Counted from the stretch's first letter, positions 11,161-45,150 are shown. The stretch: 64,000 bases of DNA from Arenicellales bacterium (GCA_965116595.1 OZ220708.1:1078875-1142874), one strand, 5' to 3'. A program made the numbers and translations. Notes: generated by a model from the sequence alone, not told the origin.

Positions 11161-11186
11161 GACCGACGCACGGGCGCGGGTTGGGC

Positions 11187-29144: not shown

Positions 29145-29735
29145 GTAGGAGTCTGGCGGCTTCCCTTCATCCCGCAGGCACTCGTCCCCACCGGAACCAA
29201 GCCGGAGGGATTTCTGCGCTTTCCTACCTTCACGCTCGGAACGACCCAAGAATTACTAGGCACACAGGGTAGCCACAAGTACGCTGTCGGCCCTCGGCGA
29301 CAAGTCGATTTGCACACGAATTCGTCTTCTCGGTAGCAGATCGATGTAATAGTCCTTCACGTATTCCAAGCGCAGGAACTGGATATCGGACGGTCGGCAA
29401 CGTGTCAATGTCCGTTCGTGCCGTCGCGCGGAATTATGGAGATGACGGGTAACCGCAGGAATTCGAGTTGAGTCTATTACAATGATATATTGATCCGCCG
29501 CTCCGGATACGAACCAGTCTTCCCGCCTCGTCTAGGAACCGTGTTAAGACTAGGTGGAAGTGAGCATTCCCAAGTGCAGATTGTGCACAGTTGATACCGA
29601 AGACGGAGAATAGAGAAGTCTCAAGGTTCAGAGTGACAAACGCCTACGGTCAACGTAGGTCTAAGGTTCTATGGGTTTAAATTTTATTTGACTTCCAAAC
29701 AGACTTCCATTAACTTCCATCAAAGGAAGAAAGCC

Positions 29736-30824
29736 ATGAGCAATTTCTATTCATTTTCAGCAATTCGAGGGATGCAAGCAGGTCATCCATATTACACAGT
29801 GATGATTCCGCTATGTCAGGTACCGCGAATTTTCAGTTTTGACGATGAGACATTACCGCCAGACCTGCGAACCCAGCGTGTGCTCTCGAAGGCTCGGGTT
29901 CCCCAGATCGCCGACTACCTGTCGACGAACTGGGATAATTACATTCTTTCATCGCTCTGCGCGTCGGTGGATGGAGACCTGAATTTCAAGTCGGCGTCCG
30001 ATGATCTCTCGTTGCGCAATGTGGGAATTCTAACCATTTCCATGGACGCTCGCATTCTCCTGAACGACGGACAGCATCGCCGTGCCGCAATCGAAGAGGC
30101 ACTCAAGACGAGGCCTGAACTTGAAAATGAGACTATTTCCGTTGTGCTGTTCGCTGATCGCGGACTGGGGCGCTGTCAGCAAATGTTCGCCGATCTCAAC
30201 AAAAACGCGGTGCGTCCGTCTGGCTCACTGAACGTCCTCTTCGATCACCGCAATCCCCTGGCTCGTCTGTCGGCGCATGTCCTGAGCGAGGTTGAGTTTT
30301 TCAGGCGCTTCACCGATTTAGAACGCAGTTCCATCCCGAACCGGGGGACGGCTCTCTATACGCTTTCCAGCCTCAACCGCGCCAATGAATGGCTCGCAGG
30401 GAAGACCGCAGACCGCTTTGGCGAAGACACTCCCGCACTCGCGGCGGCCTATTGGGGTGCGCTCTACCAAGCAATGATCGACTGGCAGCGCCTTGATGCG
30501 GGGTCCTTAAAATCCTGCGATCTGCGTCAAGCGACGGTCCACGCCCATGGCGTGTTGCTGCAGTCCTTCGGACTCCTTGGTAGACGTCTCCTAGCCGAAA
30601 AGCCGAAATCGTGGCGCAAATACCTTTCAAGCCTCAAATCCTTGGACTGGTCGCGCCGGAATGCCGATCTCTGGGAGGGTCGAGTGATGAATAGCGCGCG
30701 GATGAACGGCCAAAAGCGGGCGGTCCTGCTCGGCGCCAATGTACTCTGCCAAACTGTTGGTCTGCCCCTCGACGAGCGGGGTCGCCAAGCCGAGTCGAGC
30801 TTTGGTGAAAAGGAGGCTGCGTAA
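29736..30824 (+). CDS. dndB: DNA phosphorothioation regulator/associated protein DndB
   Basis: It carries the DGQHR-domain signature LLNDGQHRRAAIEEA. I chose the ATG at 29736 (preceded by AAGGAAG) over the upstream TTG in the ORF track. Confidence 0.9.
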   Translation: MSNFYSFSAIRGMQAGHPYYTVMIPLCQVPRIFSFDDETLPPDLRTQRVLSKARVPQIADYLSTNWDNYILSSLCASVDGDLNFKSASDDLSLRNVGILTISMDARILLNDGQHRRAAIEEALKTRPELENETISVVLFADRGLGRCQQMFADLNKNAVRPSGSLNVLFDHRNPLARLSAHVLSEVEFFRRFTDLERSSIPNRGTALYTLSSLNRANEWLAGKTADRFGEDTPALAAAYWGALYQAMIDWQRLDAGSLKSCDLRQATVHAHGVLLQSFGLLGRRLLAEKPKSWRKYLSSLKSLDWSRRNADLWEGRVMNSARMNGQKRAVLLGANVLCQTVGLPLDERGRQAESSFGEKEAA

Positions 30825-30825
30825 G

Positions 30826-32268
30826 TTGGCGACCTTGATTGACGACTTTGATTCGACATCCGAATCCGAAGTTCCCGGCCGCTCCATTATGGACATCGTA
30901 GAAGAAGTCCGCTGGCTCTATGGCAGCGATGACCGCCCTTGGGTGATCGGTTATAGTGGCGGCAAGGATTCGACCTGTGCACTGCAACTCATCTGGTCGG
31001 CCTTGTCAGGATTGCCGAAGAAAAAGAGAAAGAAGCAGGTATATGTCTTGAGCTCCGACACACTGGTCGAGACGCCTGTCATCGTCGACTATATCGATAA
31101 TACGATCTCCAACATCAACGCAGCTGCCAAGGCGCAATCGATCCCAGTTGAGGCACACAAGGTGGTACCGGATATTTCCGACAGTTTCTGGGTTAACTTG
31201 CTGGGACGCGGCTACCCGGCTCCATCCAAACGATTTCGTTGGTGCACAGAGCGGCTAAAGATTGATCCTGCAAATGCGTTCATCAAAGAGAAAGTGGCAG
31301 AGTTCGGCGAGGTCGTCATGGTGCTGGGTGTACGCCGCGCCGAAAGCGCAACCCGCGCCCAAGTTATGTCACTTCATCGGATCAAGAACAGCGTTCTCTC
31401 CCGCCATACGACATTGCTCGGTGCCTATGTATATACGCCAATTGAAGCATTTAGTACTGATGATGTATGGAGCTATTTACTCCAGAACAGTAATCCGTGG
31501 GGCGGAGACAATCGCCATCTCCTCGCAATGTATCGGAATGCCCAAGCGGGCGAGTGCCCACTCGTGGTGGATAAGAACACTGAAAGCTGCGGCAACTCCA
31601 GATTCGGTTGTTGGGTCTGCACTGTGGTCACGAAGGACAAGGCCATGGAGGCTATGATCGACAATGGCGAGACATGGCTAGAACCTTTGCTTGACCTTAG
31701 AGATGAACTCGCGGCTACCCAAGACCCGTCGGAGAAGTCGAAAGTCCGCGATTTCCGACGGCGGAACGGAAGTGTGACCTTTAAGGCTGGCAGCAATGAG
31801 ATGATCCCGGGACCCTACCGGATATCCTTCCGAAAGAGCTTCCTGAAGAAACTTCTGGAAGCGCAAATGGAGGTGAACCGGAACGCTCCGCCAGGAGAAA
31901 AGACAATACTCATTCATGATGCAGAACTTCTGGAAATCCAGCGCCTTTGGCGATCCGAAGCTGGCGATTGGGACGACACTATCGCAACTCTTGTGCACGA
32001 GGTTCTCGGCCGTGAGTTGCCCATCGAAGACGACGGCGCTTACAAGTTCAACGGCGAAGACGGTGCAATCCTGGAAGAGGTGTGCGAGGAATATTGTGTG
32101 CCGCCGGCACTCCTTGCTCAACTCTTGGAGGTTGAACGATCCGTCCGTGGTTTGAAACGTCGAGCCGCCGTCCACCAGAAGATCGGCGCAGTGATGGAGC
32201 GCGAGTGGCGCGCTGAGGACGACGTGATCTCCGAGCGTAATATAAGGATGCGAAAAGGTGCGTCATGA
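30826..32268 (+). CDS. dndC: DNA phosphorothioation protein DndC (PAPS-reductase-like ATP pyrophosphatase, Fe-S)
   Basis: It has the PP-loop WVIGYSGGKDST and the Cys cluster CGNSRFGCWVC. The start is set to TTG 30826, which lies 9 nt after AGGAGG and 2 nt after the dndB stop. GTG 30805 and ATG 30889 are alternatives; the track ORF begins at 30739. Confidence 0.92.
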   Translation: MATLIDDFDSTSESEVPGRSIMDIVEEVRWLYGSDDRPWVIGYSGGKDSTCALQLIWSALSGLPKKKRKKQVYVLSSDTLVETPVIVDYIDNTISNINAAAKAQSIPVEAHKVVPDISDSFWVNLLGRGYPAPSKRFRWCTERLKIDPANAFIKEKVAEFGEVVMVLGVRRAESATRAQVMSLHRIKNSVLSRHTTLLGAYVYTPIEAFSTDDVWSYLLQNSNPWGGDNRHLLAMYRNAQAGECPLVVDKNTESCGNSRFGCWVCTVVTKDKAMEAMIDNGETWLEPLLDLRDELAATQDPSEKSKVRDFRRRNGSVTFKAGSNEMIPGPYRISFRKSFLKKLLEAQMEVNRNAPPGEKTILIHDAELLEIQRLWRSEAGDWDDTIATLVHEVLGRELPIEDDGAYKFNGEDGAILEEVCEEYCVPPALLAQLLEVERSVRGLKRRAAVHQKIGAVMEREWRAEDDVISERNIRMRKGAS

Positions 32269-34208
32269 TCCTCGAGACGCTGACTCTCAATAATTTTGGC
32301 CTGTACGGCGGCGAGTATCAGTTCAATCTGTCTCCGGCCACCGATGACGAACGCCCCGTGATCCTCGTACTCGGTCACAATGGCGGTGGCAAGACGACTT
32401 TCCTCGAGGCGGTTCGACTCGCCCTCTACGGCAAGCGCGCCCTTGGCGCTCGGGTGGCGCGCTCCGACTATGAAGCCTATCTCCTGCGGCGCATTCATAT
32501 TCTCGCTGAAGAACGGGCCGCCTCTGTGACATTGTCGTTTTCGCGCCATGAAGAAGGGCGTACTGTGCATTATGAAGTTCAGCGTGCTTGGGCGGCACGC
32601 GACACATCAGTCATTGATTCCATCGAACTCACCTGCGACGGCATGCTGGTCAATGACATTCCACCCGAGGATTGGGATCATTATTTAGAAGATATGATCC
32701 CGTCGGGTATCTCGCAGCTCTTCTTCTTCGACGGCGAGAAAATCCAGGACATCGCTGACGACACCTCCACGGATGGGGTGAGAGATTCAATCCGTTCCCT
32801 TCTTGGCCTAGACCTGATTGATCAACTCCGCAGTGACCTTGCGCTTTATACCGCGCGACGGAATCCATCAAGGGCAAATGTGGACCTCGAAGCGATTGAG
32901 CGCGATTTGAAGGCGGCAAAGACAGAGCTTGTCGTCCTGGAAGAAAATGCAGCCCAGGACCGCGCCGACCGTGGCCGGGCCGATCGGCAGATCGCTAAAG
33001 CGCAAATGGCGTTTAACACCGAGGGTGGGGCCGCCGCGCTGGACCGGACTGGGCTGAAACAGACCTTGCAAGAAGTGGAGAAGCGGATCGACTGGTTGCA
33101 AAGCGATTTAAAACGTCTCGCCGAGAGCACGTTGCCTCTCGGTCTTGCCCCGAATCTGTTGGGTCGATTGAACGACGTTGTTTCCCAACGTGGTTTTTCA
33201 GCCAGTACAGAGGCGATTGGGGAGTTCCTCGACGCTTTTCAGTCCAGCGACAGAACCAAGGCGTCAAAGCGACCGTATTGGACCAAGAGCCATTTCTCAG
33301 CCCTAAGTGCATTCCTCGACGAGGCTTGCGATGATTCTGACGACATCACGCTCGACGCAGATCCGGCCTGGGTCAAGAACCGAATCGATGTGATCGATAT
33401 GGGTTTGAGGGGCCAAGCGGCTGATCTTGGCAGAGAGTTTGATGCGGCGCGGCACCGCCAAGCATGGCTTAAGAAACAGCTACGGAACTTCGATGAGAAC
33501 GCGGCGCACGAGACTCTCGAGATCCTGAGGACGGCCGAATATGAGCGTGGGCGTGCCGAGGCGCAACTGATGGAAAAGGAAAAGGCAATCTCAAGTCTGC
33601 GTTACCGGATCGGTCAACTTGAAAAAGAGCGGGACCGCGCGCTTGATGTGGAACTCGACACAGCGCTGGCGTTTCACAAGATCGATCTAGGCGAACGCGC
33701 TAGAGCCGCCCTTGCGGTCTATGAGTCTCGTGTCCTCGAACGGCGGATTGTTTCGCTTTCCAAGCATTTCGTGGAGTGTTTTAATGGGCTGATCCGGAAG
33801 AAACGGCTTCTCAGCAGTGTGCAGATCGATCCGAACACGTTCGACATCACGCTTATCGGGGCCGAAAGCGTCGAAATCCCCAAAGAGGCGTTGTCGGCAG
33901 GTGAGCGGCAGATCTTCGCGATCTCCATGCTTTGGGCGCTTGGCAAGACCTCGGGGCGCGATTTGCCAATGATTATCGACACGCCTCTGTCACGGCTCGA
34001 TCAGGCGCACCGGAAATCTCTTATGCGCGATTACGTGCCCGTGGCGAGCCGGCAGATAATCCTTTTGTGTACCGATAGCGAGTTGACGCCGGATCTCGAT
34101 AAACTGATCTCGCCCTTCGTGGCTCGCCGCTATGAGATCGGCGTTTCCCTGAGCGATCATCGAACCCACATAACGCCACACTCGCCGGATGTAGTAAATG
34201 CACATTAG
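32265..34208 (+). CDS. dndD: DNA phosphorothioation protein DndD (SMC/ABC-like ATPase)
   Basis: 647 aa. It has Walker A LGHNGGGKTT, a long coiled-coil middle, the signature LSAGERQIFAISML and Walker B PMIIDTPLSRLD. An ATGA overlap joins it to dndC. Confidence 0.9.
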   Translation: MILETLTLNNFGLYGGEYQFNLSPATDDERPVILVLGHNGGGKTTFLEAVRLALYGKRALGARVARSDYEAYLLRRIHILAEERAASVTLSFSRHEEGRTVHYEVQRAWAARDTSVIDSIELTCDGMLVNDIPPEDWDHYLEDMIPSGISQLFFFDGEKIQDIADDTSTDGVRDSIRSLLGLDLIDQLRSDLALYTARRNPSRANVDLEAIERDLKAAKTELVVLEENAAQDRADRGRADRQIAKAQMAFNTEGGAAALDRTGLKQTLQEVEKRIDWLQSDLKRLAESTLPLGLAPNLLGRLNDVVSQRGFSASTEAIGEFLDAFQSSDRTKASKRPYWTKSHFSALSAFLDEACDDSDDITLDADPAWVKNRIDVIDMGLRGQAADLGREFDAARHRQAWLKKQLRNFDENAAHETLEILRTAEYERGRAEAQLMEKEKAISSLRYRIGQLEKERDRALDVELDTALAFHKIDLGERARAALAVYESRVLERRIVSLSKHFVECFNGLIRKKRLLSSVQIDPNTFDITLIGAESVEIPKEALSAGERQIFAISMLWALGKTSGRDLPMIIDTPLSRLDQAHRKSLMRDYVPVASRQIILLCTDSELTPDLDKLISPFVARRYEIGVSLSDHRTHITPHSPDVVNAH

Positions 34209-34575
34209 CAAGTTTCGCGTGTCCAGTGAGGCGACCAGCCGCCTGCGCGTACTGCGTCAGCGAGCAGCGCTTACGCCTAACCTCCTTTGCCGTATGGCCA
34301 TGGCTATGTCTTTCGAGATGGGCAAGGTCGGTCCGGCCTCGGAGATCGAGGAAGGTCAGGAGTTCAACGCCTATACGCTTTTCGGCGGAGACCAGCCGAT
34401 CTACATCACGCTGCTAAGATGGGTGGAAACCGAAGACGGGGAAGAGGTCGATGACCGAGAATTAGTCCTCCGTTTGCGTACACATATTGATCGGGGTCTG
34501 TCAGCAATTTTTACGCGGGTGAAGTCTCCGGGTGACGCCGCACGGCTCTTGGCAGGAGATTCGGCAGCCCGATGA
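34198..34575 (+). CDS. dndE: DNA phosphorothioation protein DndE
   Basis: 125 aa. It sits between dndD and the cysteine desulfurase gene and overlaps both neighbours. The N-terminus is FRVSSEATSRLRVLRQRAALTPNLLCRMA. Confidence 0.85.
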   Translation: MHISKFRVSSEATSRLRVLRQRAALTPNLLCRMAMAMSFEMGKVGPASEIEEGQEFNAYTLFGGDQPIYITLLRWVETEDGEEVDDRELVLRLRTHIDRGLSAIFTRVKSPGDAARLLAGDSAAR

Positions 34576-35738
34576 CCAGCCCGGTCTATCTCGATCACAA
34601 CGCTTCGACACCAATGGACTCCGTCGTCATCGACGTGATGACGGAGGCCATTCGCACCCATTTTGCCAATCCGTCGAGCGGTGAACATGCGGCTGGTGCT
34701 GCCGCCTCTCAGGCAGTCGAACATGCTCGGGGAACCATCGCAAAGGCCATCGGCGCCCGTCCGACGGAGATCATCTTCTGCAGTGGATCAACGGAAGCGA
34801 ACAATTTGGCACTCATGGGGGCATTCCCTGATTTGAAGGCAAAAGGAAAGACCCAAATCATTACCTCCGCCATTGAACACCCGTCGGTCATGGAACCACT
34901 AAGGCAGCTCGAGGCTGTAGAAGACGCGGAGATCGTCCGTGTGGCGGTAGGTGAAGATGGTCGGGTGTCCCCAGGTGCAATCGAAGAAGTCCTAGGCAAG
35001 AACACCGGCCTGGTAACTATCATGGCAGCGAACAACGAGACCGGGATTCTCCAACCCATCGATCAGATTGGCGCCCTCTGTACAGAGCGCAATATCCTAT
35101 TCCATACGGACTATTCGCAGGCTACCGCCTACCGTGCGCTCGATGTCCTAGCAGCCAATGTTCATCTTGCGAGTTTCTCTGGGCACAAAATGTACGGGCC
35201 GAAGGGCATCGGGATCCTTTATCGGCGCTTACGAAAACCGCGCGTGGAAATCACGTCCATCATTCACGGCGGCGGCCAGGAGCGAGGCCTACGATCAGGC
35301 ACCTTGAATACGCCAGCGATTGTCGCTTTGGGGGCAGCGTTTGAACAAGTCATCCGGTTTCGCGCTAAGGATGTGGAGACCATTGCGGAACGACGTGATG
35401 AACTCGTTGATGGATTGCTCCAGATTGGGGGAGTCTACACAAACGGTGACCGCGCCCAGGTCTTGCCGAACACGGTTTCGCTTTCGGTGGAAGACATCGA
35501 ACCGCTAGCATTGATGCGTTTGTTGAAGAATGAAGTCGTATTCTCCGCATCGAGTGCATGTTCAACGGACCGCATAGAAACGTCTCACGTGCTGAAGTGT
35601 ATGCTTGGCGACACGCTGCGGGCGCGTCAGGCATTTCGATTGGGTCTTGGGCGCGGTACCACCGATGCGGATATTGAGCGGGCAGTCTCCGCGTTCACGT
35701 GGGGCGTCACCCGACTTCGATCAGGACGCTTAACCTGA
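34572..35738 (+). CDS. dndA: cysteine desulfurase DndA (NifS/IscS-like)
   Basis: 388 aa. It reads VYLDHNASTP, SGHKMYGPKGIG (PLP lysine) and SASSACS (catalytic Cys loop). Confidence 0.9.
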   Translation: MTSPVYLDHNASTPMDSVVIDVMTEAIRTHFANPSSGEHAAGAAASQAVEHARGTIAKAIGARPTEIIFCSGSTEANNLALMGAFPDLKAKGKTQIITSAIEHPSVMEPLRQLEAVEDAEIVRVAVGEDGRVSPGAIEEVLGKNTGLVTIMAANNETGILQPIDQIGALCTERNILFHTDYSQATAYRALDVLAANVHLASFSGHKMYGPKGIGILYRRLRKPRVEITSIIHGGGQERGLRSGTLNTPAIVALGAAFEQVIRFRAKDVETIAERRDELVDGLLQIGGVYTNGDRAQVLPNTVSLSVEDIEPLALMRLLKNEVVFSASSACSTDRIETSHVLKCMLGDTLRARQAFRLGLGRGTTDADIERAVSAFTWGVTRLRSGRLT

Positions 35739-36212
35739 AACGGTGTCGTCGCCAGACCGCCAAAGATCGGCATAGGCAACGAGGAATTCATCGACGCTGC
35801 GGGGTCCACCCATGGCGTCCCGGAGGATTTCGAACCCTTTAGCTGCGTAACGGTTCATGAACCTTACCCCGTCCTCGCTCAGACCCAAAGGAGAGCGAGG
35901 GTCGAGCAGTTTGACGGTCTCCTTCTCGATTAGATCGCGGTTATTCGAATCGAGCTTGCGCCTGCGGATTTCCGCCTCAACTAAGAGCCCGAGCAGGTAA
36001 CTGTCATAGGCTTGGTAGGCCTCTGGATACTTCGCGCCAGCCGCAATGAAAGGCTGCATAAACTGGGAGTCGCTCGCCATCTGACCAGCGCGAAGCCCCA
36101 GCATGAGGCATGAGTAGAATTTGTCGATGTCCAGGAACCGAACACCTTTAATCGAGTGATCATGGATCTTGGAAAAAAACGCGTCCGCGTCTTCGGTCAA
36201 CCGGAGGCTCAT
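35730..36212 (-). CDS. hypothetical protein, last gene of the convergent 4-gene module (PbeD-like position)
   Basis: 160 aa with no motif I recognise. Its start overlaps the upstream stop by 4 nt, and its 3' end overlaps the dndA stop by 9 nt. Confidence 0.6.
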   Translation of the reverse strand: MSLRLTEDADAFFSKIHDHSIKGVRFLDIDKFYSCLMLGLRAGQMASDSQFMQPFIAAGAKYPEAYQAYDSYLLGLLVEAEIRRRKLDSNNRDLIEKETVKLLDPRSPLGLSEDGVRFMNRYAAKGFEILRDAMGGPRSVDEFLVAYADLWRSGDDTVSG

Positions 36213-38161
36213 GTGGTTTCCCCATCGGTCGTTTGGCGTCTGAATTCTTCAAGTCCATAATGGGTCTCGACACGTCCATTCGCAGTTTGTCTAAGCGTGA
36301 TGAACTGTGCGTCTTCACGCTCGTAAAAATTCTCTGCAAAGGCAGCTTGTTCGCTTGAAATCACAAACAGGATCATCTGTTCGAACAACGTTGGAATGAC
36401 GCGGCTGACCTCTTCGCGCACCTCAAGATCGAGCGAGACGGCCGGACTGTCAACGATGAAAGGCAATTCAAATGGCGCCTTTGAAAGAAGGGCCGTCAGG
36501 AAGGCGTATGCGACCGACAGGCTCTGTCCCTCGCTCACATCGTCCTTACTCGACGCTTTGTTTGAACTCAGTTCCAACGCGCCGTCGATCCGTTCAACAC
36601 GAAGGTCTTCCATCTGAACAAGGGTTGCGAGCCGATCATTGGTTTCTTTACGAATGACTTCGCGCAGGCCTGTTAGCGCCTTTGCCTCGACACGCTCCAG
36701 CTGATCAAGGAGTCGGTCGCGCCGCAGTGACAGATGATAGGAGGCTTCAACCTCATCAAGGGTCGCTTTGCAGTCATCGCAATATCGGCGGGCAAGCGGG
36801 ATATTGGTTCTTTTGGTGCATTGGTGCGCCCTCTGTTTCACTGGATCAGCAGTTTCAAGACCTCCAATCTCTGTTTCAAGCGCCGTCAGTTTGACCTTTA
36901 TTTCACCTTCTCGCTCCGTGAGCGGGCGCATATCCTCATCACCGCGTTCTTCGGCCTCCAGTTTCAAACGCGCCATCGCCTTCTCATTGGCTTGGCGATC
37001 TTCTAGCTTCTCTTGAAGGATTTCGCAGGAGTCGAGAAAGCTAGTCTCGGTCGCCGCACTAGAATTGAGGCGTTCTTTCATGGTCGCGATAGCAGATATC
37101 TGATCCTGCGCCAGATATTGTTCCTTTCGCTGGATAAGCACAGCGCGTTCCGCCGGTCCGATTGGTCGACCGCAGATGCACTCGCCTTCGTCAGCAACCT
37201 CCTCGAAAAAGTCCGAAGATACGCTTTTCGGGAGCCGCGCCCGAGTCAAGGTTGCCCCAAGATCCGTGAGGCAAGACGTAATAACCGATGAAAGCGTGGC
37301 GGGATTTCGATAAGCCAGGATTGCTTGGCTTGTCGATGACTGAATATCGCCAGCAAGATCTTCGGCTTCGGCAACCAGCTTAATACGGCGTTTCTCTAGG
37401 TCGCCGTTACGCGCAATGTGTGACTCAATTTCCGTGCGGACCCCTTCCAGTACTTTTTCGAGTTCGACGTAAGCGGATCTTTTTTCTCTCAGAGATTCTT
37501 CCAGTGTCCTTAATTGATGCGTTGCATCATCCACCAACTTCCGATACCGCGAAACTGCCTTTTTCGTTTTTCCCGAGGTGCGCTCCAAAGCATCTTGACG
37601 CTTCGTCACCACGTGAGCAACATGCTGCCGTAGAGTAGCGATATCGTCGAGTTGATATAGCGTTCGAATCGCGCGATCGGCGGCCGCCTTGTTGAGGTCG
37701 CGGATATCGCGCGCCAGTTCACCATCAAAAACGAATAGCCTGATGAACTCCGATTTCAAGATGTGTTTAAGGTCGGGAGGAAGAACCAATCCACGCTCAT
37801 GGCCACCACCGCGCTCTACGGCTCTCAAGGTCGAATACTGATAGCTCCCGTCTCTGAAATCGAAATTAGCGGTCAGACGATAATGGTTCGGAGGTCCGCC
37901 GCGTCGTCCTTCGATGAGCAAACCAAGTTCGAATACGCCGGTTTCGACAGCGTCACTGGCCCTAAAGCCGCAGACTTTTTCGGGGCTGAGCTTCTCCTCG
38001 CCTAGCACTGCGCGGATAAGGGTCATGGTGGAAGTCTTGCCGAGCCCATTCGGCATCTGAATGAGCGACCAGCGCGCTGGGGGATTGCCGAGCTCAAAGG
38101 ACTCAACCCCTTCGCCAATCCGCAGGTTTTCGCATCGCCAGTCCGTGATCCTAATCTTCAT
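36209..38161 (-). CDS. SMC/DndD-like P-loop ATPase (PbeC-like position)
   Basis: The start is trimmed to MKIRITDWRCENL. It has Walker A MPNGLGKTS, a ~350-aa coiled-coil region, the signature-like SEGQSLSVAYAFLTALL and Walker B PFIVDSPAVSLD. Confidence 0.8.
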   Translation of the reverse strand: MKIRITDWRCENLRIGEGVESFELGNPPARWSLIQMPNGLGKTSTMTLIRAVLGEEKLSPEKVCGFRASDAVETGVFELGLLIEGRRGGPPNHYRLTANFDFRDGSYQYSTLRAVERGGGHERGLVLPPDLKHILKSEFIRLFVFDGELARDIRDLNKAAADRAIRTLYQLDDIATLRQHVAHVVTKRQDALERTSGKTKKAVSRYRKLVDDATHQLRTLEESLREKRSAYVELEKVLEGVRTEIESHIARNGDLEKRRIKLVAEAEDLAGDIQSSTSQAILAYRNPATLSSVITSCLTDLGATLTRARLPKSVSSDFFEEVADEGECICGRPIGPAERAVLIQRKEQYLAQDQISAIATMKERLNSSAATETSFLDSCEILQEKLEDRQANEKAMARLKLEAEERGDEDMRPLTEREGEIKVKLTALETEIGGLETADPVKQRAHQCTKRTNIPLARRYCDDCKATLDEVEASYHLSLRRDRLLDQLERVEAKALTGLREVIRKETNDRLATLVQMEDLRVERIDGALELSSNKASSKDDVSEGQSLSVAYAFLTALLSKAPFELPFIVDSPAVSLDLEVREEVSRVIPTLFEQMILFVISSEQAAFAENFYEREDAQFITLRQTANGRVETHYGLEEFRRQTTDGETT

Positions 38162-38333
38162 CTGTGCGATCCCCAACATCGATTTGGTCCAAAAGATCGT
38201 GAATGTCGGATGGATCGAGATTGTCGAGCATCGCATTCTCGATAAGTGCCGCTAACGCATTCTTATAAGTCTCGTCCATACCGTCTTCGTTGCAAACGAC
38301 CTCGACCGCCTCGCGGACTGCTTTGTCGATCAT
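38151..38333 (-). CDS. small acidic protein (PbeB-like position)
   Basis: 60 aa: MIDKAVREAVEVVCNEDGMDETYKNALAALIENAMLDNLDPSDIHDLLDQIDVGDRTDED. GGAGG lies ~10 nt upstream of its ATG, and it overlaps the next gene's start by 11 nt. Confidence 0.5.
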   Translation of the reverse strand: MIDKAVREAVEVVCNEDGMDETYKNALAALIENAMLDNLDPSDIHDLLDQIDVGDRTDED

Positions 38334-38359
38334 GATGAATTGGCCTCCACACTCTCCAT

Positions 38360-40318
38360 TCAAACCGCCGCCAGCCCTTGAAACCAAGCGCGCCGCTTGT
38401 CGTCTGTCGACAAAGGTGCATCGGGCGGCAGTGGCTCATCGTCATCGTAGGTCCTGATGAAATCGACGACCGTTGCGCGCTTGTTCCTGTTTTTGGGATC
38501 GATTCGAAGGCATCGTCCAACCCGCTGTACGGTTTCGATTGGTGCCTTTGCGGTCGCGAACAGCACGATGTTGTTTACGGACTGGATATCAATACCCTCA
38601 GAAATTCGCTTGCAGGCAATAAGACAATCTAGCTCGCCTCGGGCAAAGCGTTTAAGATTTTCCCGGTCATCATCACCGTAATATGTATGATAATCAATCC
38701 GCTCTTGCAGCAAAAGTGGTTGCAGTAGTAATCCGTAATCAGCCTGTTCGACAAACAAGATGCATCGTCGAAGGATACCAGGATTACGTGCGACATAGTC
38801 TTCAAAGAGCGGAACCTTCTCCTTGGATAGCTTCTTAATCCGAGCGAGGTCCATGTAGAGCTGCTTGCGATCAGTATCACCGTCGGATTCACGTCCGTGC
38901 TGCCGAACGAAAGCAGCTTGTACCTCGGCTCGATCATCGTCAGAGTACTGAAACTCAATGGGGTGGTAATCCAGTTCGCATAGAATGCCGCGTCGGATCG
39001 CATCATGGATTTCGAACCGGAAGATGACAGGTCCGATTTCACGCTCGATGAAATCGTTCCCTTCGTCGTCGTATTCGCGCGTTGGAGTCGCACTCAGTCC
39101 TAATCGGTAGGGGAATTGCCTAAGTTTTTCATTTAGAGATGTGACCAAGCTGCTTTCGCCGAAACCGTGTACCTCGTCGCAAATGATTAGTGTTTCCGAA
39201 ATACGTTTCGGTGATAAGCGAGGAATGATATCAGCGAGCTTGCGACGGTTCGTTAACAGGCAGGCAGGCCGCTTCGACAGCCGGAACTTGTCAGCCTCGT
39301 AATAGTTTCCGTAGGCTCGATAAACCAAGTCGACCTGATCATGCTTAACAAGTTCGCCGTACCACTGATCGAGCAGGTCAGTACCATATGCCGCGATGAT
39401 AGTCGAGCGTACGAGTGCGCGTTCTCTTAATTCGGCGTCTATTATAAGTGCCGTCCGGGTTTTCCCCGTGCCGGTTGCCATGGCGAGGACGCCGGCGCGC
39501 GCTTTCATGAACGCGGCTAAAGCGTCGTTTTGATGCCGCCACTTGCTCTGGGCCGAAAGCTTTAAGCGCTTCGGGAGGACGTAAGGGCGCACAGTCTTTT
39601 TTGCGAACTTGACGAGTCTCTTCTGAATCGCAGTAGGGAGTTCATAGCTACGCACATTTGGGTCGTGTTTGTTCCAGATCCGATCAAACGTCTTCGCTAT
39701 CGAATTTGCGTGAGCCGCATCACGGTCGTCCGTCCAACCAAGATGGATGTGCAATTTCTCGAAATTCTGGAAACCTCCGACAGTTTCGTTCGGTGAACCA
39801 TTGAAGGCGATGTAGTTGCCCTGTGAGTCTTCGAAAACGCCGATCTTTATGTGGAAGTCACCGCTAAGTTTCGCTGTGGGGATAGCGATGCGCATGTCGA
39901 GGAACCCGTCGGCGATCATCCATGCCAATACCCTGAGTGGTTCTGATTTCGCTACACCTTCCAAATCGTCGATCACGCCGTTGAGCGTGGAAAGTATCTG
40001 GGGGTCGGACTTAGCGTCCTCTCCCTGCTTCACCGCGCTCCAGTCTTCTGGGGAAAGATACGGGCTGGTAATGAGTCGCATTTTGCCGCCGTTCTCGGCG
40101 AAGGTTGCGAGGCCTTCAGCAACGTAGGTTAGCCACCCAGAGGTAAAATAGCCGACGCCCCGGTCATATCGAACTGCAGTGCTCATGGCGGGCATGTATA
40201 AATCACCGACAACATCATCTTCAGACGTGTCGAGCGACTCAGGGAGATCAAGATCACGCAGACTACCCGGCCCACAACTCTCTTCCGCTTGGTTTTCGTC
40301 GTTTTGCTCTGCCCTCAT
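38360..40318 (-). CDS. PLD-family (HKD) nuclease domain fused to an SF2 (res-subunit-like) helicase (PbeA-like position)
   Basis: 652 aa. It reads YDRGVGYFTSGWL and HIKIGVFED...AFNGSPNET (HxK...GSxN). The helicase motifs are I AMATGTGKT, II LIICDEVH and VI QRVGRCLR. Confidence 0.85.
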   Translation of the reverse strand: MRAEQNDENQAEESCGPGSLRDLDLPESLDTSEDDVVGDLYMPAMSTAVRYDRGVGYFTSGWLTYVAEGLATFAENGGKMRLITSPYLSPEDWSAVKQGEDAKSDPQILSTLNGVIDDLEGVAKSEPLRVLAWMIADGFLDMRIAIPTAKLSGDFHIKIGVFEDSQGNYIAFNGSPNETVGGFQNFEKLHIHLGWTDDRDAAHANSIAKTFDRIWNKHDPNVRSYELPTAIQKRLVKFAKKTVRPYVLPKRLKLSAQSKWRHQNDALAAFMKARAGVLAMATGTGKTRTALIIDAELRERALVRSTIIAAYGTDLLDQWYGELVKHDQVDLVYRAYGNYYEADKFRLSKRPACLLTNRRKLADIIPRLSPKRISETLIICDEVHGFGESSLVTSLNEKLRQFPYRLGLSATPTREYDDEGNDFIEREIGPVIFRFEIHDAIRRGILCELDYHPIEFQYSDDDRAEVQAAFVRQHGRESDGDTDRKQLYMDLARIKKLSKEKVPLFEDYVARNPGILRRCILFVEQADYGLLLQPLLLQERIDYHTYYGDDDRENLKRFARGELDCLIACKRISEGIDIQSVNNIVLFATAKAPIETVQRVGRCLRIDPKNRNKRATVVDFIRTYDDDEPLPPDAPLSTDDKRRAWFQGLAAV

Positions 40319-40642: not shown

Positions 40643-40855
40643 CTACTTTGAATTTTTGGCACCGCTCAGATCAAATTTAGTATCCGAGGTGACGACTGGC
40701 CGTGCAGGAAAGCAGACATACTCTCGCCCGGATTCATCCTGCATTGCCCGGATGTTCCGGAAGATTGCCGCTAAGTCATAGCCGAAACGGGTTGCTTGCG
40801 CGTCGTGCACGGCCCTCACCTCAGAGATGACCGGGTCAGTCTGTTGATTCAGCAT
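40643..40855 (-). CDS. small hypothetical protein
   Basis: 70 aa: MLNQQTDPVISEVRAVHDAQATRFGYDLAAIFRNIRAMQDESGREYV. It resembles a widespread small-protein family that I cannot name. Confidence 0.45.
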   Translation of the reverse strand: MLNQQTDPVISEVRAVHDAQATRFGYDLAAIFRNIRAMQDESGREYVCFPARPVVTSDTKFDLSGAKNSK

Positions 40856-41176: not shown

Positions 41177-42442
41177 TCAGTCTCTACTTTCCCCGGCCGC
41201 GAGAAAATCGCTGTAAGCCTGGTCCCAATCGATGAACGGAAACGCTTCTTTGATCGCGTCGATAAATTCCTTACAGTTCAGCGTCTCGAAAGTCACGTCC
41301 TTGTAGTTCACATCGAGCTGCATCTTCTGAAGGAGATTCCGGGCTTTTGGAAAAATCCGTTCCAGTTCTCTGTTGAGCCAGACCCTTGCCTCCTTCTCCC
41401 CGATTACCAGAAACTGGCCACGCATCGCTTCAGGCGGATCATTGCTCACTTTCGGCACGTAATAATCAACGATTTGCTTCCGCGACTCGACGAGTTTTTC
41501 TTGCAATTCATTTTCCACAGTTTCCTGGTGGGTCTTCAAGTCCTTCCGAAACTGGTCAAGCCTTTCCTCAAGATCCGCCTTTGCAATCTTCAGCACAACG
41601 CGCCCATGGACCTTGCCGAGCGAGGGCGTGAAATTCCTCCGTATCTCATTCAGACTAATTTCAAGTTTTTTGGACGACAATCTGCCATCCTTTTCAATCA
41701 GATCGAATGTTGTCTTTAGCCGACCCTCAAGGTCCTCTGAACCACCTAATCTCTGGATGCTCGGCGGAATGGCAAGGCGGTGACGCTGAATGGCTGCACC
41801 ACTCAGCTTGATTTCGACATATTGCATGTACGCACTGTAAACACGGACTTGCCGGGCAACATCGAAATTTACAGGCGGTGCTTCCTCCAGACTTTTCTGG
41901 ACATTTTCGAAGTCTGTGTCCTCAACCTTTTCAGATGGCATTTCCACGGCCTGTTCGTGTATCCGTTCACGCTCCTCATCTGTCTTAGCCATCGCAACGG
42001 CAATGACCTTTGCACTTGGGGATAGTCGGGCAAGAGCTTCCTTTACCTGCTCTTCGGATAATCTCATCGCATTTTTTGCCGTGTCGGGTTTCTTATCCGC
42101 CTCGAGATACAAGGCATTGGGGGTGAAGATGTACCCGGTATCGTCGATGACCATCAGTCCTGTACGTAGACCCGATATTGTGCGAATCTTAATCCCGGCA
42201 TCCCGCAAAACCTTCACAGCATCGAGGGTCCCGAATCCCATCCGCATTACACGCTCATCGAAGTCGAGACAAACGGTGATCATATCAGGGCCGATTTTTC
42301 GGGCGCGAGCAGCGAGTGCCTCGGCTGGCTCTTCCTGTATTCCGGGTGCTGCATAACAGACGTTTTGCACAGCCCGCGTGATTTTACGCGCCAGTTGACT
42401 CGAATCGAGTGACAGAAACAGATTTTCAGGCATATCAGTCAA
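41177..42442 (-). CDS. hypothetical protein (421 aa)
   Basis: It is a long clean ORF. The N-terminal ~130 aa have a PLD-like beta-alpha pattern (ITVCLDFDERV...VLRDAGIKIRTISGLRTGLMVIDDTGYIFTPNA) but no HxK motif. The middle is coiled-coil rich. No confident family call is possible. Confidence 0.65.
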   Translation of the reverse strand: MTDMPENLFLSLDSSQLARKITRAVQNVCYAAPGIQEEPAEALAARARKIGPDMITVCLDFDERVMRMGFGTLDAVKVLRDAGIKIRTISGLRTGLMVIDDTGYIFTPNALYLEADKKPDTAKNAMRLSEEQVKEALARLSPSAKVIAVAMAKTDEERERIHEQAVEMPSEKVEDTDFENVQKSLEEAPPVNFDVARQVRVYSAYMQYVEIKLSGAAIQRHRLAIPPSIQRLGGSEDLEGRLKTTFDLIEKDGRLSSKKLEISLNEIRRNFTPSLGKVHGRVVLKIAKADLEERLDQFRKDLKTHQETVENELQEKLVESRKQIVDYYVPKVSNDPPEAMRGQFLVIGEKEARVWLNRELERIFPKARNLLQKMQLDVNYKDVTFETLNCKEFIDAIKEAFPFIDWDQAYSDFLAAGESRD

Positions 42443-42883
42443 GTTTTCTCTGCCAATATTCCTATCACAACTGCATCACACTATTTTTGGAGCAATCATT
42501 TTCGCGGAATGAATTTTACGTTGTGCCGGACGAAGTATCCCTTGTGAAGAAGATACTCCTCTACAATCTGCTCCAATATGTCCTCTTTCGTCGCCATTAT
42601 TTCTGGTACTCAATAGTCAATTTCAATTTCAGCCACAACTGCATTAATAAGACTGCGTATTCGAGAACGAAGTCTATCGGACCGCGCATAATAAGGCCAA
42701 TGATCGTCGTAATCTCGGTTCGAATTAGCCGTGACCGTGACCGCATCGTGACCAAATCCTATCTGGAGCGTGGATTTTGTTCAGGACCGTCTGTTCCGGG
42801 GTTTCTTCCAGTCCGCACCACAGGGTGAATTGAAAAGAGGAAGTGTATCCCAGGGTAACAATCTAGCGTCAAATGTACATCAT

Positions 42884-43684
42884 TCACTCAAGCCAGCCGG
42901 ACACCTTTAATTTCGCCTCGACAATATTCTTGTATAAATCCATACTGGCTACCTTTCCGCATTGTTTTGGCAGATCTATCACGATCTTCTTGAACCCTCG
43001 AACCATCTCGATCAGTTCATATTTCTCGTCAGTGCTTAGGCCCAATTCCTTGTACTTGGCTCGCGTGTCCAGATCGTCGCAGAACTCTTCGAAGATGGCT
43101 GATCGGGCCTGATCTGCGGTCATTACACCCTTGAAGTTTGGTGGAAGGGGAATATCTTTTGCATTCTCCAAGTCAGACCACATCTTGGAGATCAGTCTCT
43201 TCACCTCGTGGGTCTCCGTTTCCTTTCCGCGTTCCCGGATCCTCGCGGCAATGACATCCTTGAGTTCCTGCTGGGTGTCCAGCAACTTGCGCAAATTCCA
43301 CCTGATTTGTTTGAACTGTCGTATGTCGAAGGGAATTTGACCGACAAGATCCTCTCGACACATCCAGATCACCGGCTTTTTGTAGTATGCGTATCCCGCC
43401 TCGAATATCACGCTTCCCCTCAGACCGGTTTTGCGATCGTGGGTCAAATCGACGACCATCATGTCGGACTTGTCGATTTCAGCCAAAATAGTTTCGTCTA
43501 TCTTGTCTACTGCTGGATCGTGATCGACTCGGTAGGGCTTCAGGCCGTGGTGCTCCAAGGCCGGCTTGATCACGATGTCAAAGAGTTGATTCATCTCGTT
43601 TGTAGAATCTTCGTCGGACCCGAACCACATGGCCGCGAAGCATTGGGGTCTATCGTCACGTTCGATGTTATCGCTGTCATTCAT
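42884..43684 (-). CDS. nucleoside 2-deoxyribosyltransferase-like / TIR-like Rossmann domain protein
   Basis: The start is set to MNDSDNIE (ATG 43684, an ATGA overlap with the upstream ORF). The segment CFAAMWFG...IVIKPALEHHGLKPYRVDH...ILAEIDKSDMMVVDLT...SVIFEAGYAYYKKPVIWM follows the CF(V/A)xMPFG...DLT...NV.YE.G pattern of that fold. The C-terminal ~110 aa are unknown. Confidence 0.6.
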   Translation of the reverse strand: MNDSDNIERDDRPQCFAAMWFGSDEDSTNEMNQLFDIVIKPALEHHGLKPYRVDHDPAVDKIDETILAEIDKSDMMVVDLTHDRKTGLRGSVIFEAGYAYYKKPVIWMCREDLVGQIPFDIRQFKQIRWNLRKLLDTQQELKDVIAARIRERGKETETHEVKRLISKMWSDLENAKDIPLPPNFKGVMTADQARSAIFEEFCDDLDTRAKYKELGLSTDEKYELIEMVRGFKKIVIDLPKQCGKVASMDLYKNIVEAKLKVSGWLE

Positions 43685-45050: not shown

Positions 45051-45058
45051 GCCACCTC

Positions 45059-45150
45059 CTAAAATTGTAATTGTTCATAACCAACCTGAACCGTGATTCT
45101 CCAAACGAATGAAGCCTTCCAGTCCCGGATCGGCATTGTCCATTCTTCGA
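45059..45150 (-). mobile_element. 3'-terminal remnant of a second IS256-family element
   Basis: It encodes ...EEWTMPIRDWKA. The stretch 45113-45143 is the reverse complement of 47236-47266 in the intact IS transposase gene, with 30 of 31 nt identical. Confidence 0.5.

What the first reader, a model, noticed from the sequence alone, without database searches (positions are those of the whole stretch)
35730..40318. Convergent four-gene module replacing DndFGH (PLD-helicase, small acidic protein, SMC-like ATPase, small protein): PbeABCD-like or a new PT-dependent effector set
The module is a minus-strand operon whose genes overlap one another:
- A 652-aa fusion of an HKD/PLD nuclease domain (HIKIGVFED...GSPNET) and an SF2 helicase (GTGKT, DEVH, QRVGRCLR).
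- A 60-aa highly acidic protein.
- A ~650-aa DndD-like coiled-coil ATPase.
- A 160-aa protein of unknown function.

Its last gene overlaps the dndA stop by 9 nt, so the two operons are physically locked together. The order and size pattern fit what I remember of the PbeABCD module described alongside dndCDEA in haloarchaea. PbeABCD was reported to halt replication without cutting DNA. I cannot verify family membership from sequence alone. If this is not Pbe, it is an undescribed PT-linked restriction module.
Basis: partly seen in the sequence, partly recalled or inferred. Interest (0 to 1): 0.7.

Follow-up and report, generated by a model that had tools for sequence, protein, structure and literature searches.

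The report
Bacterial PbeABCD module beside dndBCDEA
This four-gene block is a bacterial copy of the already described PbeABCD defence module, sitting tail-to-tail with the genes that put sulfur marks on the host's own DNA; it is a routine member of a known system whose killing mechanism is still unsolved.

Summary
Four intact minus-strand genes lie at 35730-40318, and the last one overlaps the dndA stop by 9 nt.

- Gene 1 (652 aa) matches PADLOC PbeA over its full length (E=1.3e-186). Its HKD nuclease motif and SF2 helicase motifs are intact.
- Gene 3 (650 aa) is a DndD-like ABC ATPase with a CIC motif at residue 328, the centre of the chain. This is the 'CxC' clade to which PbeC belongs. The window's own DndD lacks the motif.
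- Gene 2 (60 aa, pI 4.05) and gene 4 (160 aa) match no library model. They occupy the PbeB and PbeD slots in size and position.

The order A, small protein, CxC ATPase, ~150-aa protein recurs in about 50 divergent loci. Of 25 relatives with at least 17 kb of sequence, 20 lie beside phosphorothioate (PT)-writing genes: 9 Dnd, 9 Ssp and 2 weaker Ssp-like.

Two membership points stay open. The small protein is not the type recognised by PADLOC's PbeB model and is only distantly Sp-CxC-like (hhalign 82%). The published claim that PbeD is a divergent DndE was not confirmed here.

This is a new member of a known kind, of low interest. How the module acts on DNA remains unknown.

The parts
38360..40318 (-). 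pbeA: 652-aa fusion of an N-terminal single-HKD (PLD-superfamily) nuclease domain with an SF2 (ResIII/Helicase_C) translocase
   Evidence: PADLOC PbeA PDLC02703 matches at E=1.3e-186, residues 21-628 against model positions 2-621 of 626. Pfam ResIII, DEAD and Helicase_C all match. H156, K158, G174, S175, N177 and helicase motifs I, II, III and VI are invariant in six homologues down to 38% identity. NCBIfam TIGR04095 dnd_restrict_1 scores 157 bits, below its 600-bit cut-off.
38151..38333 (-). pbeB-slot gene: 60-aa strongly acidic small protein (net charge -14, pI 4.05)
   Evidence: It has no Pfam, PADLOC or NCBIfam hit. A 49-108 aa ORF fills the same gap in 48 of 50 related loci. The L003 counterpart is Pfam Sp-CxC PF20304 at E=1.1e-24. 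hhalign of window-type versus Sp-CxC-type alignments gives probability 81.7%, E=1.1e-5. The AF2 model has three short helices plus a disordered acidic tail at pLDDT 62. Its stop overlaps the pbeC start by 11 nt.
36209..38161 (-). pbeC: 650-aa DndD-like coiled-coil ABC ATPase of the CxC (Zn-hook) clade
   Evidence: Motifs: Walker A GLGKT at residue 39, CIC at 328 of 650, signature SEGQ at 543, Walker B FIVDSP at 568. C(I/V)CGRPI is conserved in 8 PbeC homologues and falls in a gap in the window's own DndD. Best PADLOC PbeC match is E=1.5e-24. Of 50 downstream ATPases in related loci, 49 have a mid-chain CxC or CxxC. The start is inferred; the ORF could begin at 38236.
35730..36212 (-). pbeD-slot gene: 160-aa helical protein. 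The literature calls it a 'clade-2 DndE' partner of the CxC ATPase.
   Evidence: It overlaps the pbeC stop by 4 nt and the dndA stop by 9 nt. Homologues follow pbeC in L001-L005, and a 120-210 aa ORF follows in 41 of 46 loci. The family has 387 cluster representatives at E<=1e-3. The AF2 model has pLDDT 81 and pTM 0.81. DndE relationship is unproven: hhalign 0.3% and 6.4%, Foldseek places DndE 5wtu at rank 44 with E=6, and 0 of 43 members hit Pfam DndE.
29688..30824 (+). dndB (likely true start near 29736)
   Evidence: PADLOC DndB E=3.9e-133 and Pfam DndB E=6.3e-117. The L001 homologue starts at the internal Met.
30739..32268 (+). dndC (start uncertain). Its C-terminal residues 440-487 resemble free-standing 'PbeB/Sp-DndD' small proteins.
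   Evidence: PADLOC DndC E=1.7e-200. The PADLOC PbeB model hits residues 443-487 (E=2.3e-4) and Pfam Sp-DndD hits 440-483 (E=1.2e-4).
32265..34208 (+). dndD: canonical ABC ATPase without a CxC motif
   Evidence: PADLOC DndD E=7.8e-188. The alignment shows no CxC motif.
34198..34575 (+). dndE
   Evidence: PADLOC DndE E=9e-41 and Pfam DndE E=1e-19.
34572..35738 (+). dndA: cysteine desulfurase, convergent with pbeD
   Evidence: PADLOC DndA E=1.1e-125 and Pfam Aminotran_5 E=1.6e-69.

Best explanation
The block is a bacterial PbeABCD module, also called a 'CxC ABC-ATPase-centred system'. It is paired with a complete dndBCDEA phosphorothioate (PT) writer and together they form one defence unit.

Shown here:
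- The four genes, their order and their catalytic motifs are those of the family.
- The module is kept next to PT-writing genes in relatives.

Taken from published experiments on the haloarchaeal founder (PMC6459918):
- DndCDEA marks host DNA with PT.
- All four Pbe proteins are needed to cut virus plaquing about 10^4-fold.
- Protection requires PT.
- Viral DNA stops replicating.

Inferred for this locus:
1. A PbeC dimer, held by its CxC zinc hook, loads on DNA together with PbeD and uses ATP to scan or loop it. This parallels what is proposed for DndD-DndE.
2. DNA lacking the host's PT pattern licenses PbeA.
3. PbeA translocates with its SF2 motor and attacks or blocks the DNA through its HKD phosphodiesterase site. 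That site is invariant across homologues and so is probably catalytically used.
4. The acidic 60-aa PbeB is a regulatory or docking subunit, possibly an inhibitor or a DNA mimic.
For: Family assignment:
- PbeA matches the PADLOC PbeA model over its full length (E=1.3e-186).
- The CxC motif sits at the mid-point of PbeC, is conserved in homologues and is absent from the window's DndD.
- The A, small, C, D architecture recurs. Of 55 loci with enough downstream sequence, 50 have the ATPase. Of those 50, 49 carry the mid-chain Cys motif and 48 have the small ORF. 41 of 46 have the fourth ORF.

Linkage to PT writers:
- dndBCDEA adjoins the module in all five closest genomes despite three different gene orientations.
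- Among 25 loci of at least 17 kb, 9 adjoin Dnd, 9 adjoin SspABCD (identified with PADLOC in L028) and 2 adjoin weaker Ssp-like genes. Association with two unrelated PT writers argues for dependence on PT itself.

Active sites:
- The HKD residues and helicase motifs are invariant down to 38% identity.
- B/C and C/D overlaps of 11 and 4 nt suggest translational coupling.

Experimental basis for PT-dependent antiviral activity and the need for all four genes: PMC6459918.
Against: - No function was tested for this locus or for any bacterial member.
[quoted passage not shown] This conflicts with an active HKD nuclease, and a 2025 review calls the restriction event 'obscure' (PMC12707154).
- In the literature only 42% of PbeAC lie within 10 kb of dndCD (PMC6459918), so PT dependence need not be universal.
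- PbeB here is not recognised by PADLOC's PbeB model, which hits only DndC-tail-type small proteins.
- PbeD's proposed DndE-like DNA-binding fold was not confirmed, and the protein is acidic (pI 5.2).
- PADLOC's PbeC models also hit the window's DndD, and more strongly than they hit PbeC. The PbeC call therefore rests on the CxC motif and on gene position.
Confidence: 0.78

Rival explanations
1. Abortive-infection (suicide) model. PbeB holds the PbeA nuclease in check. A phage factor removes or modifies PbeB, and PbeA then cuts host DNA, stopping phage replication at the population level. PT would have only an indirect role or none.
For: This was proposed as an alternative in PMC10853773. It would explain why viral DNA stayed intact in PMC6459918. 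The small-protein slot evolves fast and is filled by unrelated families, as expected for a phage-contacted sensor or decoy. PbeB is very acidic and weakly structured.
Against: In PMC6459918, PT-modified virus escaped the system and loss of dndCDEA abolished protection without toxicity. That points to self/non-self marking, not suicide. The tight, orientation-independent linkage to two kinds of PT writer is not required by this model.
Confidence: 0.12
2. A stand-alone ATP-dependent restriction system (Type I/III-like helicase-nuclease plus an ABC scanning pair) that sits next to dnd only because both lie in a defence island.
For: The region at about 25-51 kb is a defence island holding several other candidate systems. 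58% of PbeAC in PMC6459918 lack dndCD within 10 kb, and many lie near methylases instead. PMC10853773 questions the functional coupling.
Against: Immediate adjacency to dnd is kept in all five closest genomes through rearrangements, including a 9-18 nt convergent overlap in the window and L001. 20 of 25 well-flanked loci carry a PT writer next door. No methyltransferase lies within the module.
Confidence: 0.07
3. PbeCD is a second DndDE-like targeting pair that directs a modification or repair activity instead of restriction. PbeA would then act in processing PT-related nicks.
For: PbeC is a sister clade of DndD. PbeD is claimed to be a DndE cognate (PMC10853773). Some CxC systems carry methylases (PMC10853773).
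Against: The module contains no modification enzyme. The founder system is antiviral (PMC6459918). An HKD domain fused to an SF2 helicase is a typical restriction-effector architecture.
Confidence: 0.03

Closest known systems
PbeABCD of Haloterrigena jeotgali (Natrinema thermotolerans) A29 (Xiong et al. 2019, PMC6459918)
   Same: The gene order is the same: HKD-SF2 fusion, ~60-aa protein, ~650-aa coiled-coil ATPase, ~150-aa protein. Both sit directly beside dnd modification genes. PbeA shows full-length homology through the PADLOC models.
   Different: The host is bacterial: the closest relative is Rhizobium sp. L1K21, and the other four genome relatives are Pseudomonadota. dndB is present. 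The module is convergent with dndA and overlaps it. The small protein is not the type matched by PADLOC's PbeB model, which resembles the DndC C-terminus. There are no functional data.
CxC ABC-ATPase-centred systems (Aravind group; PMC10853773; Pfam Sp-CxC PF20304)
   Same: All listed components are present: HKD+SF2 effector, a rapidly evolving small protein, a CxC ATPase with the motif at the coiled-coil apex, and a small partner protein. The system lies in tandem with a DndD-centred system, as reported for 936 bacterial taxa.
   Different: The window's small protein does not reach the Pfam Sp-CxC threshold and is linked to it only by hhalign (81.7%). My tools did not reproduce the 'clade-2 DndE' assignment of the partner protein. 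There is no methylase or MTaX1 gene.
DndFGH restriction module
   Same: It has the same genomic role as a candidate restriction partner encoded next to dnd modification genes.
   Different: There is no sequence similarity. No DndF/G/H model hit any module protein or any other window ORF scanned. DndFGH nicks and translocates DNA, and losing PT is toxic. For Pbe, no cleavage was seen and PT loss was tolerated (PMC6459918).
Type I/III restriction R subunits and the DISARM PLD nuclease DrmC
   Same: PbeA has an SF2 ResIII-type motor (Pfam ResIII E=6e-16). It also has a PLD/HKD nuclease like DrmC, BfiI and Nuc.
   Different: The nuclease is HKD, not PD-(D/E)xK. It is fused N-terminally to the motor. 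It works with an ABC ATPase pair and not with a methyltransferase or specificity subunit.
Five-gene relatives carrying PADLOC 'Orf5' (DUF262-like protein with SspE-like N-terminus)
   Same: L002-L005 share the A-B-C-D genes at 38-50% PbeA identity and have the same dnd neighbours.
   Different: They carry a ~600-aa Orf5 gene after pbeD (PADLOC E=5.8e-196 for L002). The window and L001 lack it, so pbeD abuts dndA directly.

Membership tests
PbeABCD / CxC ABC-ATPase-centred system | PbeA: an N-terminal HKD (PLD-superfamily) domain fused to an SF2 helicase | tested here: met
   The PADLOC PbeA model matches over its full length at E=1.3e-186. Pfam ResIII, DEAD and Helicase_C match. The HxK...GSxN motif and helicase motifs are invariant in six homologues.
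PbeABCD / CxC ABC-ATPase-centred system | PbeC: a DndD-like coiled-coil ABC ATPase with a CxC Zn-hook motif at the coiled-coil apex (PMC10853773) | tested here: met
   CIC lies at residue 328 of 650. C(I/V)CGRPI is conserved in 8 homologues and absent from the window's DndD. Walker A, signature and Walker B motifs are present. PADLOC PbeC hits reach only 1.5e-24, and these models also hit DndD, so they do not discriminate. Zinc binding itself was not tested.
PbeABCD / CxC ABC-ATPase-centred system | PbeB: a small (~55-75 aa), rapidly evolving protein encoded between pbeA and pbeC | tested here: met
   A 60-aa ORF lies in the slot, and its stop overlaps the pbeC start. The same slot is filled in 48 of 50 related loci.
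PbeABCD / CxC ABC-ATPase-centred system | PbeB is homologous to the founder-type PbeB (PADLOC PDLC02708) | tested here: not met
   There is no hit even at E<=10. The model recognises only the DndC-tail-type small proteins of L035 and L084, and the DndC C-terminus itself.
PbeABCD / CxC ABC-ATPase-centred system | PbeB belongs to Pfam Sp-CxC (PF20304) | tested here: inconclusive
   There is no direct Pfam hit. The syntenic L003 protein hits at 1.1e-24. hhalign of window-type versus Sp-CxC-type profiles gives probability 81.7%, E=1.1e-5 over 44 columns.
PbeABCD / CxC ABC-ATPase-centred system | PbeD: a ~150-aa protein encoded immediately after pbeC | tested here: met
   The protein is 160 aa and overlaps pbeC by 4 nt. 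Homologues hold the same position in L001-L008, L013 and L014. A 120-210 aa ORF follows the ATPase in 41 of 46 loci.
PbeABCD / CxC ABC-ATPase-centred system | PbeD is a 'clade-2' DndE (two RHH repeats with long loops and a long C-terminal helix; PMC10853773) | tested here: inconclusive
PbeABCD / CxC ABC-ATPase-centred system | The four genes form one transcription unit | not testable with these tools
   All four are on the same strand, with gaps of 26, -11 and -4 nt. No terminator-like site lies on the minus strand inside the module. Co-transcription was shown only for the founder (PMC6459918).
PbeABCD / CxC ABC-ATPase-centred system | Genomic linkage to PT modification genes | tested here: met
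   dndBCDEA lies immediately adjacent. Linkage is conserved in 5 of 5 genome relatives. Of 25 loci of at least 17 kb, 20 carry Dnd or Ssp writers.
PbeABCD / CxC ABC-ATPase-centred system | PT-dependent antiviral activity that halts replication without visible DNA cleavage | not testable with these tools
   This is known only from H. jeotgali genes expressed in Natrinema (PMC6459918).
DndFGH | Sequence homology to DndF, DndG or DndH | tested here: not met
   No DndF/G/H model appears among the PADLOC hits for any module protein or for the other window ORFs scanned.
   Pfam SMC_N scores 20.8 bits against a cut-off of 40. The whole protein is 650 aa and has a CxC motif where the hinge would be. 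The criteria come from PMC10853773.
NCBIfam TIGR04095 dnd_restrict_1 | Score at or above the 600-bit equivalog cut-off | tested here: not met
   The score is 157 bits, over the helicase part only (residues 249-626). PbeA is a related protein but not a member.

The most novel reading that the evidence does not exclude
The Pbe/CxC module may be a writer-agnostic reader of phosphorothioate. In the related loci I collected, the same A-small-C-D module sits next to either Dnd (double-strand PT) or SspABCD (single-strand PT) gene sets about equally often. The small-protein slot is filled by unrelated families, one of which is a free-standing copy of the DndC C-terminal segment.

If the pairing is functional, PbeCD would have to sense the sulfur mark or its absence, not a writer-specific motif. 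The small protein could then be the exchangeable adaptor that couples the module to a given writer or ATPase.

I did not find Ssp-Pbe adjacency stated in the papers I read. It may nevertheless be known. It concerns relatives, not this window.
Probability: 0.3. Interest if true: 0.5.

Novelty: new member of a known kind. Interest (0 to 1): 0.22.

Why it matters
For this window, little changes. The locus can be annotated as dndBCDEA-pbeABCD, a system described in 2019 and reclassified in 2024, and already reported from hundreds of bacterial genomes.

It has modest practical value in two respects. Current defence-finder models miss two of the four genes here (PbeB and PbeD). PADLOC's PbeC models also cross-hit DndD, so automated calls for this subfamily will be incomplete.

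More broadly, the mechanism of Pbe restriction is still unresolved. An HKD site conserved across homologues conflicts with the 'no cleavage' result for the founder. A compact, Orf5-less proteobacterial version could be a more tractable experimental model than the haloarchaeal one.

Tried and rejected
- **PbeD as a DndE.** I tried to confirm the published claim five ways.
  - Profile-profile comparison.
  - Pfam scan of 43 family members.
  - PDB profile search.
  - AF2 model plus Foldseek against PDB.
  - Outcome: only a weak, colinear hint, so I leave it open.
- **Direct family hits for PbeB and PbeD.** PADLOC, Pfam and NCBIfam gave none, even at E<=10.
- **Naming the source organism.**
  - Exact look-ups show the proteins are in NCBI on a 2.71-Mb contig, but without names.
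  - The look-up of encoding contigs had no record.
- **Solved structures.** PbeA matches only XPB-like helicases, and PbeC matches nothing.
- **Promoter and terminator scan.**
  - Fewer sites were found than in shuffled sequence, and none on the minus strand.
  - This says nothing for a non-E. coli host.
- **The 421-aa ORF upstream (41177-42442) as part of the module.**
  - It has no family hit and no homologue in any related locus.
  - It lies 858 nt from pbeA.
  - I therefore rejected it as a fifth component.
- **The second Cys pair in PbeC (CDDC at residue 461).** It is not conserved even in L001, so I rejected it as part of the hook.
- **SMC membership.** Rejected.


Full report
**1. What is in the sequence**

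On the minus strand between 35730 and 40318 there are four intact ORFs.

- 38360-40318 encodes 652 aa.
- 38151-38333 encodes 60 aa. It starts at an ATG with GGAGG 10 nt upstream.
- 36209-38161 encodes 650 aa, counted from the ATG that overlaps the preceding stop. The open frame reaches back to 38236.
- 35730-36212 encodes 160 aa.

Gene spacing is as follows.

- A and B are separated by 26 nt.
- B and C overlap by 11 nt.
- C and D overlap by 4 nt.
- The last gene overlaps the stop region of dndA (plus strand, 34572-35738) by 9 nt. I checked this overlap base by base.

Upstream on the plus strand lies a complete dndB-C-D-E-A set. Every gene has a strong PADLOC and Pfam match, from DndE at E=9e-41 to DndC at E=1.7e-200.

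**2. Identity of the four proteins**

*The 652-aa protein.*
- It matches PADLOC PbeA model PDLC02703 end to end (E=1.3e-186, residues 21-628 on model positions 2-621 of 626).
- Pfam finds ResIII, DEAD and Helicase_C.
- The N-terminal third carries a single HKD motif (H156-x-K158 ... G174-S-P-N177).
- In an alignment with five genomic homologues down to 38% identity, the HKD residues and helicase motifs I, II, III and VI are all invariant. Both activities are therefore under selection.
- NCBIfam's older 'DNA phosphorothioation system restriction enzyme' model (TIGR04095) is a relative but scores far below its cut-off: 157 bits against 600.

*The 650-aa protein.*
- It has Walker A (GLGKT, residue 39), an ABC signature (SEGQ, 543) and Walker B (FIVDSP, 568).
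- It has a CIC motif at residue 328, the mid-point of the chain.
- Aligned with seven homologues and the window's own DndD, the block C(I/V)CGRPI is conserved in every homologue and falls in a gap in DndD.
- According to PMC10853773, this is the feature that separates the 'CxC' ABC-ATPase clade, to which PbeC belongs, from DndD and from SMC proteins.
- PADLOC's PbeC models hit only moderately (best E=1.5e-24). They hit the window's DndD far better (E=2.8e-184). The model names do not discriminate, so the assignment rests on the motif and the gene position.

*The 60-aa and 160-aa proteins.* Neither matches anything in PADLOC, Pfam or NCBIfam, even at permissive thresholds.

**3. Conservation elsewhere**

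*Genome relatives.* A scan of species-representative genomes with PbeA found five relatives:
- Rhizobium sp. L1K21, at 76% identity;
- a Sphingomonadaceae MAG, a Pseudooceanicola sp. and two Pseudomonadota MAGs, at 38-50% identity.

In all five, PbeA is followed by a small ORF, a PbeC homologue and a PbeD homologue, and dndBCDEA is adjacent. The relative orientation takes three forms.
- Convergent: the window, L001 and L002.
- dndA co-directional upstream with dndBCDE divergent: L003 and L004.
- All co-directional: L005.

Adjacency that survives rearrangement argues for functional linkage.

*Metagenome relatives.* A metagenome scan with the PbeA alignment gave 80 more loci at 22-40% identity. 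I called ORFs and applied home-made HMMs and motif checks.
- 50 of 55 loci with at least 2.6 kb downstream carry an ATPase of at least 600 aa directly after PbeA.
- 49 of those 50 have a CxC or CxxC near mid-chain.
- 48 of the 50 have a 49-108-aa ORF in the gap.
- 41 of 46 loci have a 120-210-aa ORF next.

The four-gene architecture is thus a stable property of the family.

**4. The two small proteins**

*PbeB slot.*
- The window protein is strongly acidic: 18 D/E against 4 K/R, pI 4.05.
- AF2 predicts three short helices and a disordered acidic tail with low confidence (pLDDT 62).
- The syntenic protein in L003 is a clear member of Pfam Sp-CxC, 'small protein from certain CxC ATPase-based DNA modification systems' (E=1.1e-24). 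NCBI names its relatives accordingly.
- Profile-profile comparison links the window-type 60-mers to that family only moderately: 81.7% probability, E=1.1e-5.
- The link to a 62-aa type seen in L002 and L005 is strong, at 98.6%. Two members of the window-type alignment resemble that type, which may inflate the score.
- PADLOC's PbeB model does not recognise the window protein or seven other slot proteins I tested. It recognises only the L035 and L084 small proteins and the C-terminal segment of DndC itself.
- The slot is therefore occupied by at least two unrelated families, and this window does not carry the DndC-tail type that the PADLOC PbeB model recognises.

*PbeD slot.*
- The family is real and moderately large: 387 cluster representatives at E<=1e-3 among 1.84 billion.
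- It gives a confident helical AF2 model (pLDDT 81, pTM 0.81).
- PMC10853773 states that PbeD is a divergent 'clade-2' DndE. I could not confirm this.
  - hhalign against canonical DndE gave 0.3% with shallow profiles.
  - It gave 6.4% (P=0.0057) with deeper ones, although that alignment is colinear from the N-terminus and pairs a conserved Cys.
  - Foldseek against the PDB had no significant hit and placed DndE 5wtu at rank 44.
  - None of 43 fourth-gene proteins hits Pfam DndE.
  - A PDB profile search found nothing.
- I record this feature as inconclusive.

**5. Link to phosphorothioation**

My narrow Dnd HMMs found Dnd genes in 16 of 85 loci. Another group showed only weak DndC and DndA hits.

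PADLOC on one of those loci (L028, human gut) showed that the upstream genes are SspD, SspB, SspC and SspA. This is the other, non-homologous PT-writing system.

Searching all loci with the L028 proteins found a strong Ssp cluster in 10 loci and weaker or partial ones in 9.

Restricting to the 25 loci with at least 17 kb of sequence gives 9 next to Dnd, 9 next to Ssp, 2 next to Ssp-like genes and 5 with neither. Association with two unrelated PT writers is good comparative evidence that the module's function depends on PT.

**6. Mechanism**

*Published experiments* (PMC6459918), using the H. jeotgali genes expressed in Natrinema:
- Plaquing of virus SNJ1 fell about 10^4-fold.
- All four pbe genes and PT were required.
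- PT-modified virus escaped.
- Viral DNA stopped replicating without visible cleavage.
- Loss of dndCDEA was not toxic.

*Published inference* (PMC10853773): the CxC ATPase and its partner scan DNA, the HKD-SF2 protein is the effector and probably does cleave, and the small protein is a negative regulator.

A 2025 review still calls the restriction event 'obscure' (PMC12707154). No solved structure of a PbeA or PbeC relative exists in the PDB copy searched.

*My reading for this locus* is the self/non-self model with PbeC-PbeD as scanner, PbeA as motor-nuclease effector and PbeB as regulator. Only the parts list, the motif integrity and the PT linkage are shown here. The rest is inferred.

The invariant HKD site favours a catalytic role and sits awkwardly with the 'no cleavage' report.

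The alternatives are abortive infection, island co-location only, and a modification or repair role. They are less well supported, for the reasons given under rival explanations.

**7. Comparison and novelty**

The locus is a member of the PbeABCD / CxC-ABC-centred family. Tandem arrangement with a Dnd system has been reported for 235 bacterial pbeAC (PMC6459918) and for 936 bacterial taxa (PMC10853773).

It differs from the founder in these respects:
- a bacterial host;
- presence of dndB;
- a convergent arrangement that overlaps dndA;
- a different small-protein family;
- relative to its own 38-50% relatives, absence of the fifth gene (PADLOC 'Orf5', a DUF262-like protein with an SspE-like N-terminus).

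None of this departs from the known kind.

**8. Context**

The module lies in a defence island at about 24-51 kb, between glycolate-oxidase genes and a COQ7 gene next to tRNA-Pro. The island contains:
- PD-Lambda-5_A-like and Mrr-like genes;
- an HNH endonuclease just upstream of dndB;
- a TIR-like gene;
- a PDC-S02-like gene;
- an IS256-family transposase;
- a UvrD/GajB-like helicase.

A separate DrmA-DrmB pair lies at 11.8-17.4 kb. No DndF/G/H match was found among the window ORFs scanned. The rest of the genome could not be examined.

Noticed in passing
L023, L025, L028, L029, L032, L038, L041, L045, L062, L066 (e.g. L028:2565-9988 upstream of the PbeA homologue at 9998-12202): In many gut and other metagenome loci the same PbeA-small-CxC ATPase-PbeD module sits directly beside SspD-SspB-SspC-SspA instead of Dnd. 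Among 25 loci of at least 17 kb the split is 9 Dnd, 9 Ssp, 2 Ssp-like and 5 none. I did not find this Ssp-Pbe pairing stated in the papers I read.
   Followed up: partly
window 32056-32199 (DndC residues 440-487); L035:12027-12242; L084:1489-1704: PADLOC's PbeB model and Pfam Sp-DndD match the C-terminal segment of DndC. The small proteins in the PbeB slot of L035 and L084 match PADLOC DndC models at positions ~407-457. Some 'PbeB' proteins therefore look like free-standing copies of the DndC tail, while the window's PbeB belongs to a different family.
   Followed up: partly
L002:14613-16421, L003:14471-16393, L004:14561-16393, L005:14536-16380: The 38-50% relatives carry a fifth gene after pbeD, a ~600-aa protein. 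In L002 it matches PADLOC 'Orf5' (E=5.8e-196) and SspE N-terminal models. The window and L001 lack it, so pbeD abuts dndA.
   Followed up: partly
window 11827-17438: A DrmA homologue (1307 aa, PADLOC bits 1502) and a DrmB homologue (540 aa, E=7e-75) lie side by side, well away from the dnd-pbe island. No DrmC, DrmD, DrmE or methylase match was seen among the neighbours scanned. The neighbouring 1099-aa minus-strand ORF (7861-11160) is a Calx-beta repeat protein.
   Followed up: partly
window 25521-29144: Three candidate defence or nuclease genes lie just upstream of dndB. One is a PDC-M38A / PD-Lambda-5_A-like protein (25521-26651). The second is an overlapping Mrr_cat-domain protein (26617-27516). 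The third is a 318-aa HNH_2 endonuclease with a weak type IV restriction-like N-terminus (28188-29144).
   Followed up: partly
window 41177-50632: Beyond pbeA lie a 421-aa ORF with no family match (41177-42442), a TIR-effector-like protein (42884-43762) and a PDC-S02-like protein (44025-45050). After these come an IS256/Mutator-family transposase (46082-47314) and a 968-aa UvrD/GajB-like helicase (47726-50632). tRNA-Pro (52092-52168) and housekeeping genes follow, which suggests the island boundary.
   Followed up: partly
window 40643-40855 (minus strand): A 70-aa ORF sits in the 858-nt gap upstream of pbeA. It has no Pfam match, and I cannot say whether it is a real gene.
   Followed up: partly
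window 24255-24956: A prepilin-peptidase (A24) ORF matches only part of each Pfam domain: A24_N positions 24-81 of 84 and Peptidase_A24 positions 1-59 of 104. It may be a truncated gene at the left edge of the island.
   Followed up: no
window 58859-59992: A 377-aa protein matches the PADLOC 'mad3' (MADS system) model at E=8e-32. Its neighbours were not examined.
   Followed up: no
PADLOC model set: Several PADLOC 'PbeC' models score the window's canonical DndD far higher (E=2.8e-184) than its true CxC-clade PbeC (E=1.5e-24). Automated PbeC and DndD calls from these models can therefore be swapped or duplicated.
   Followed up: partly
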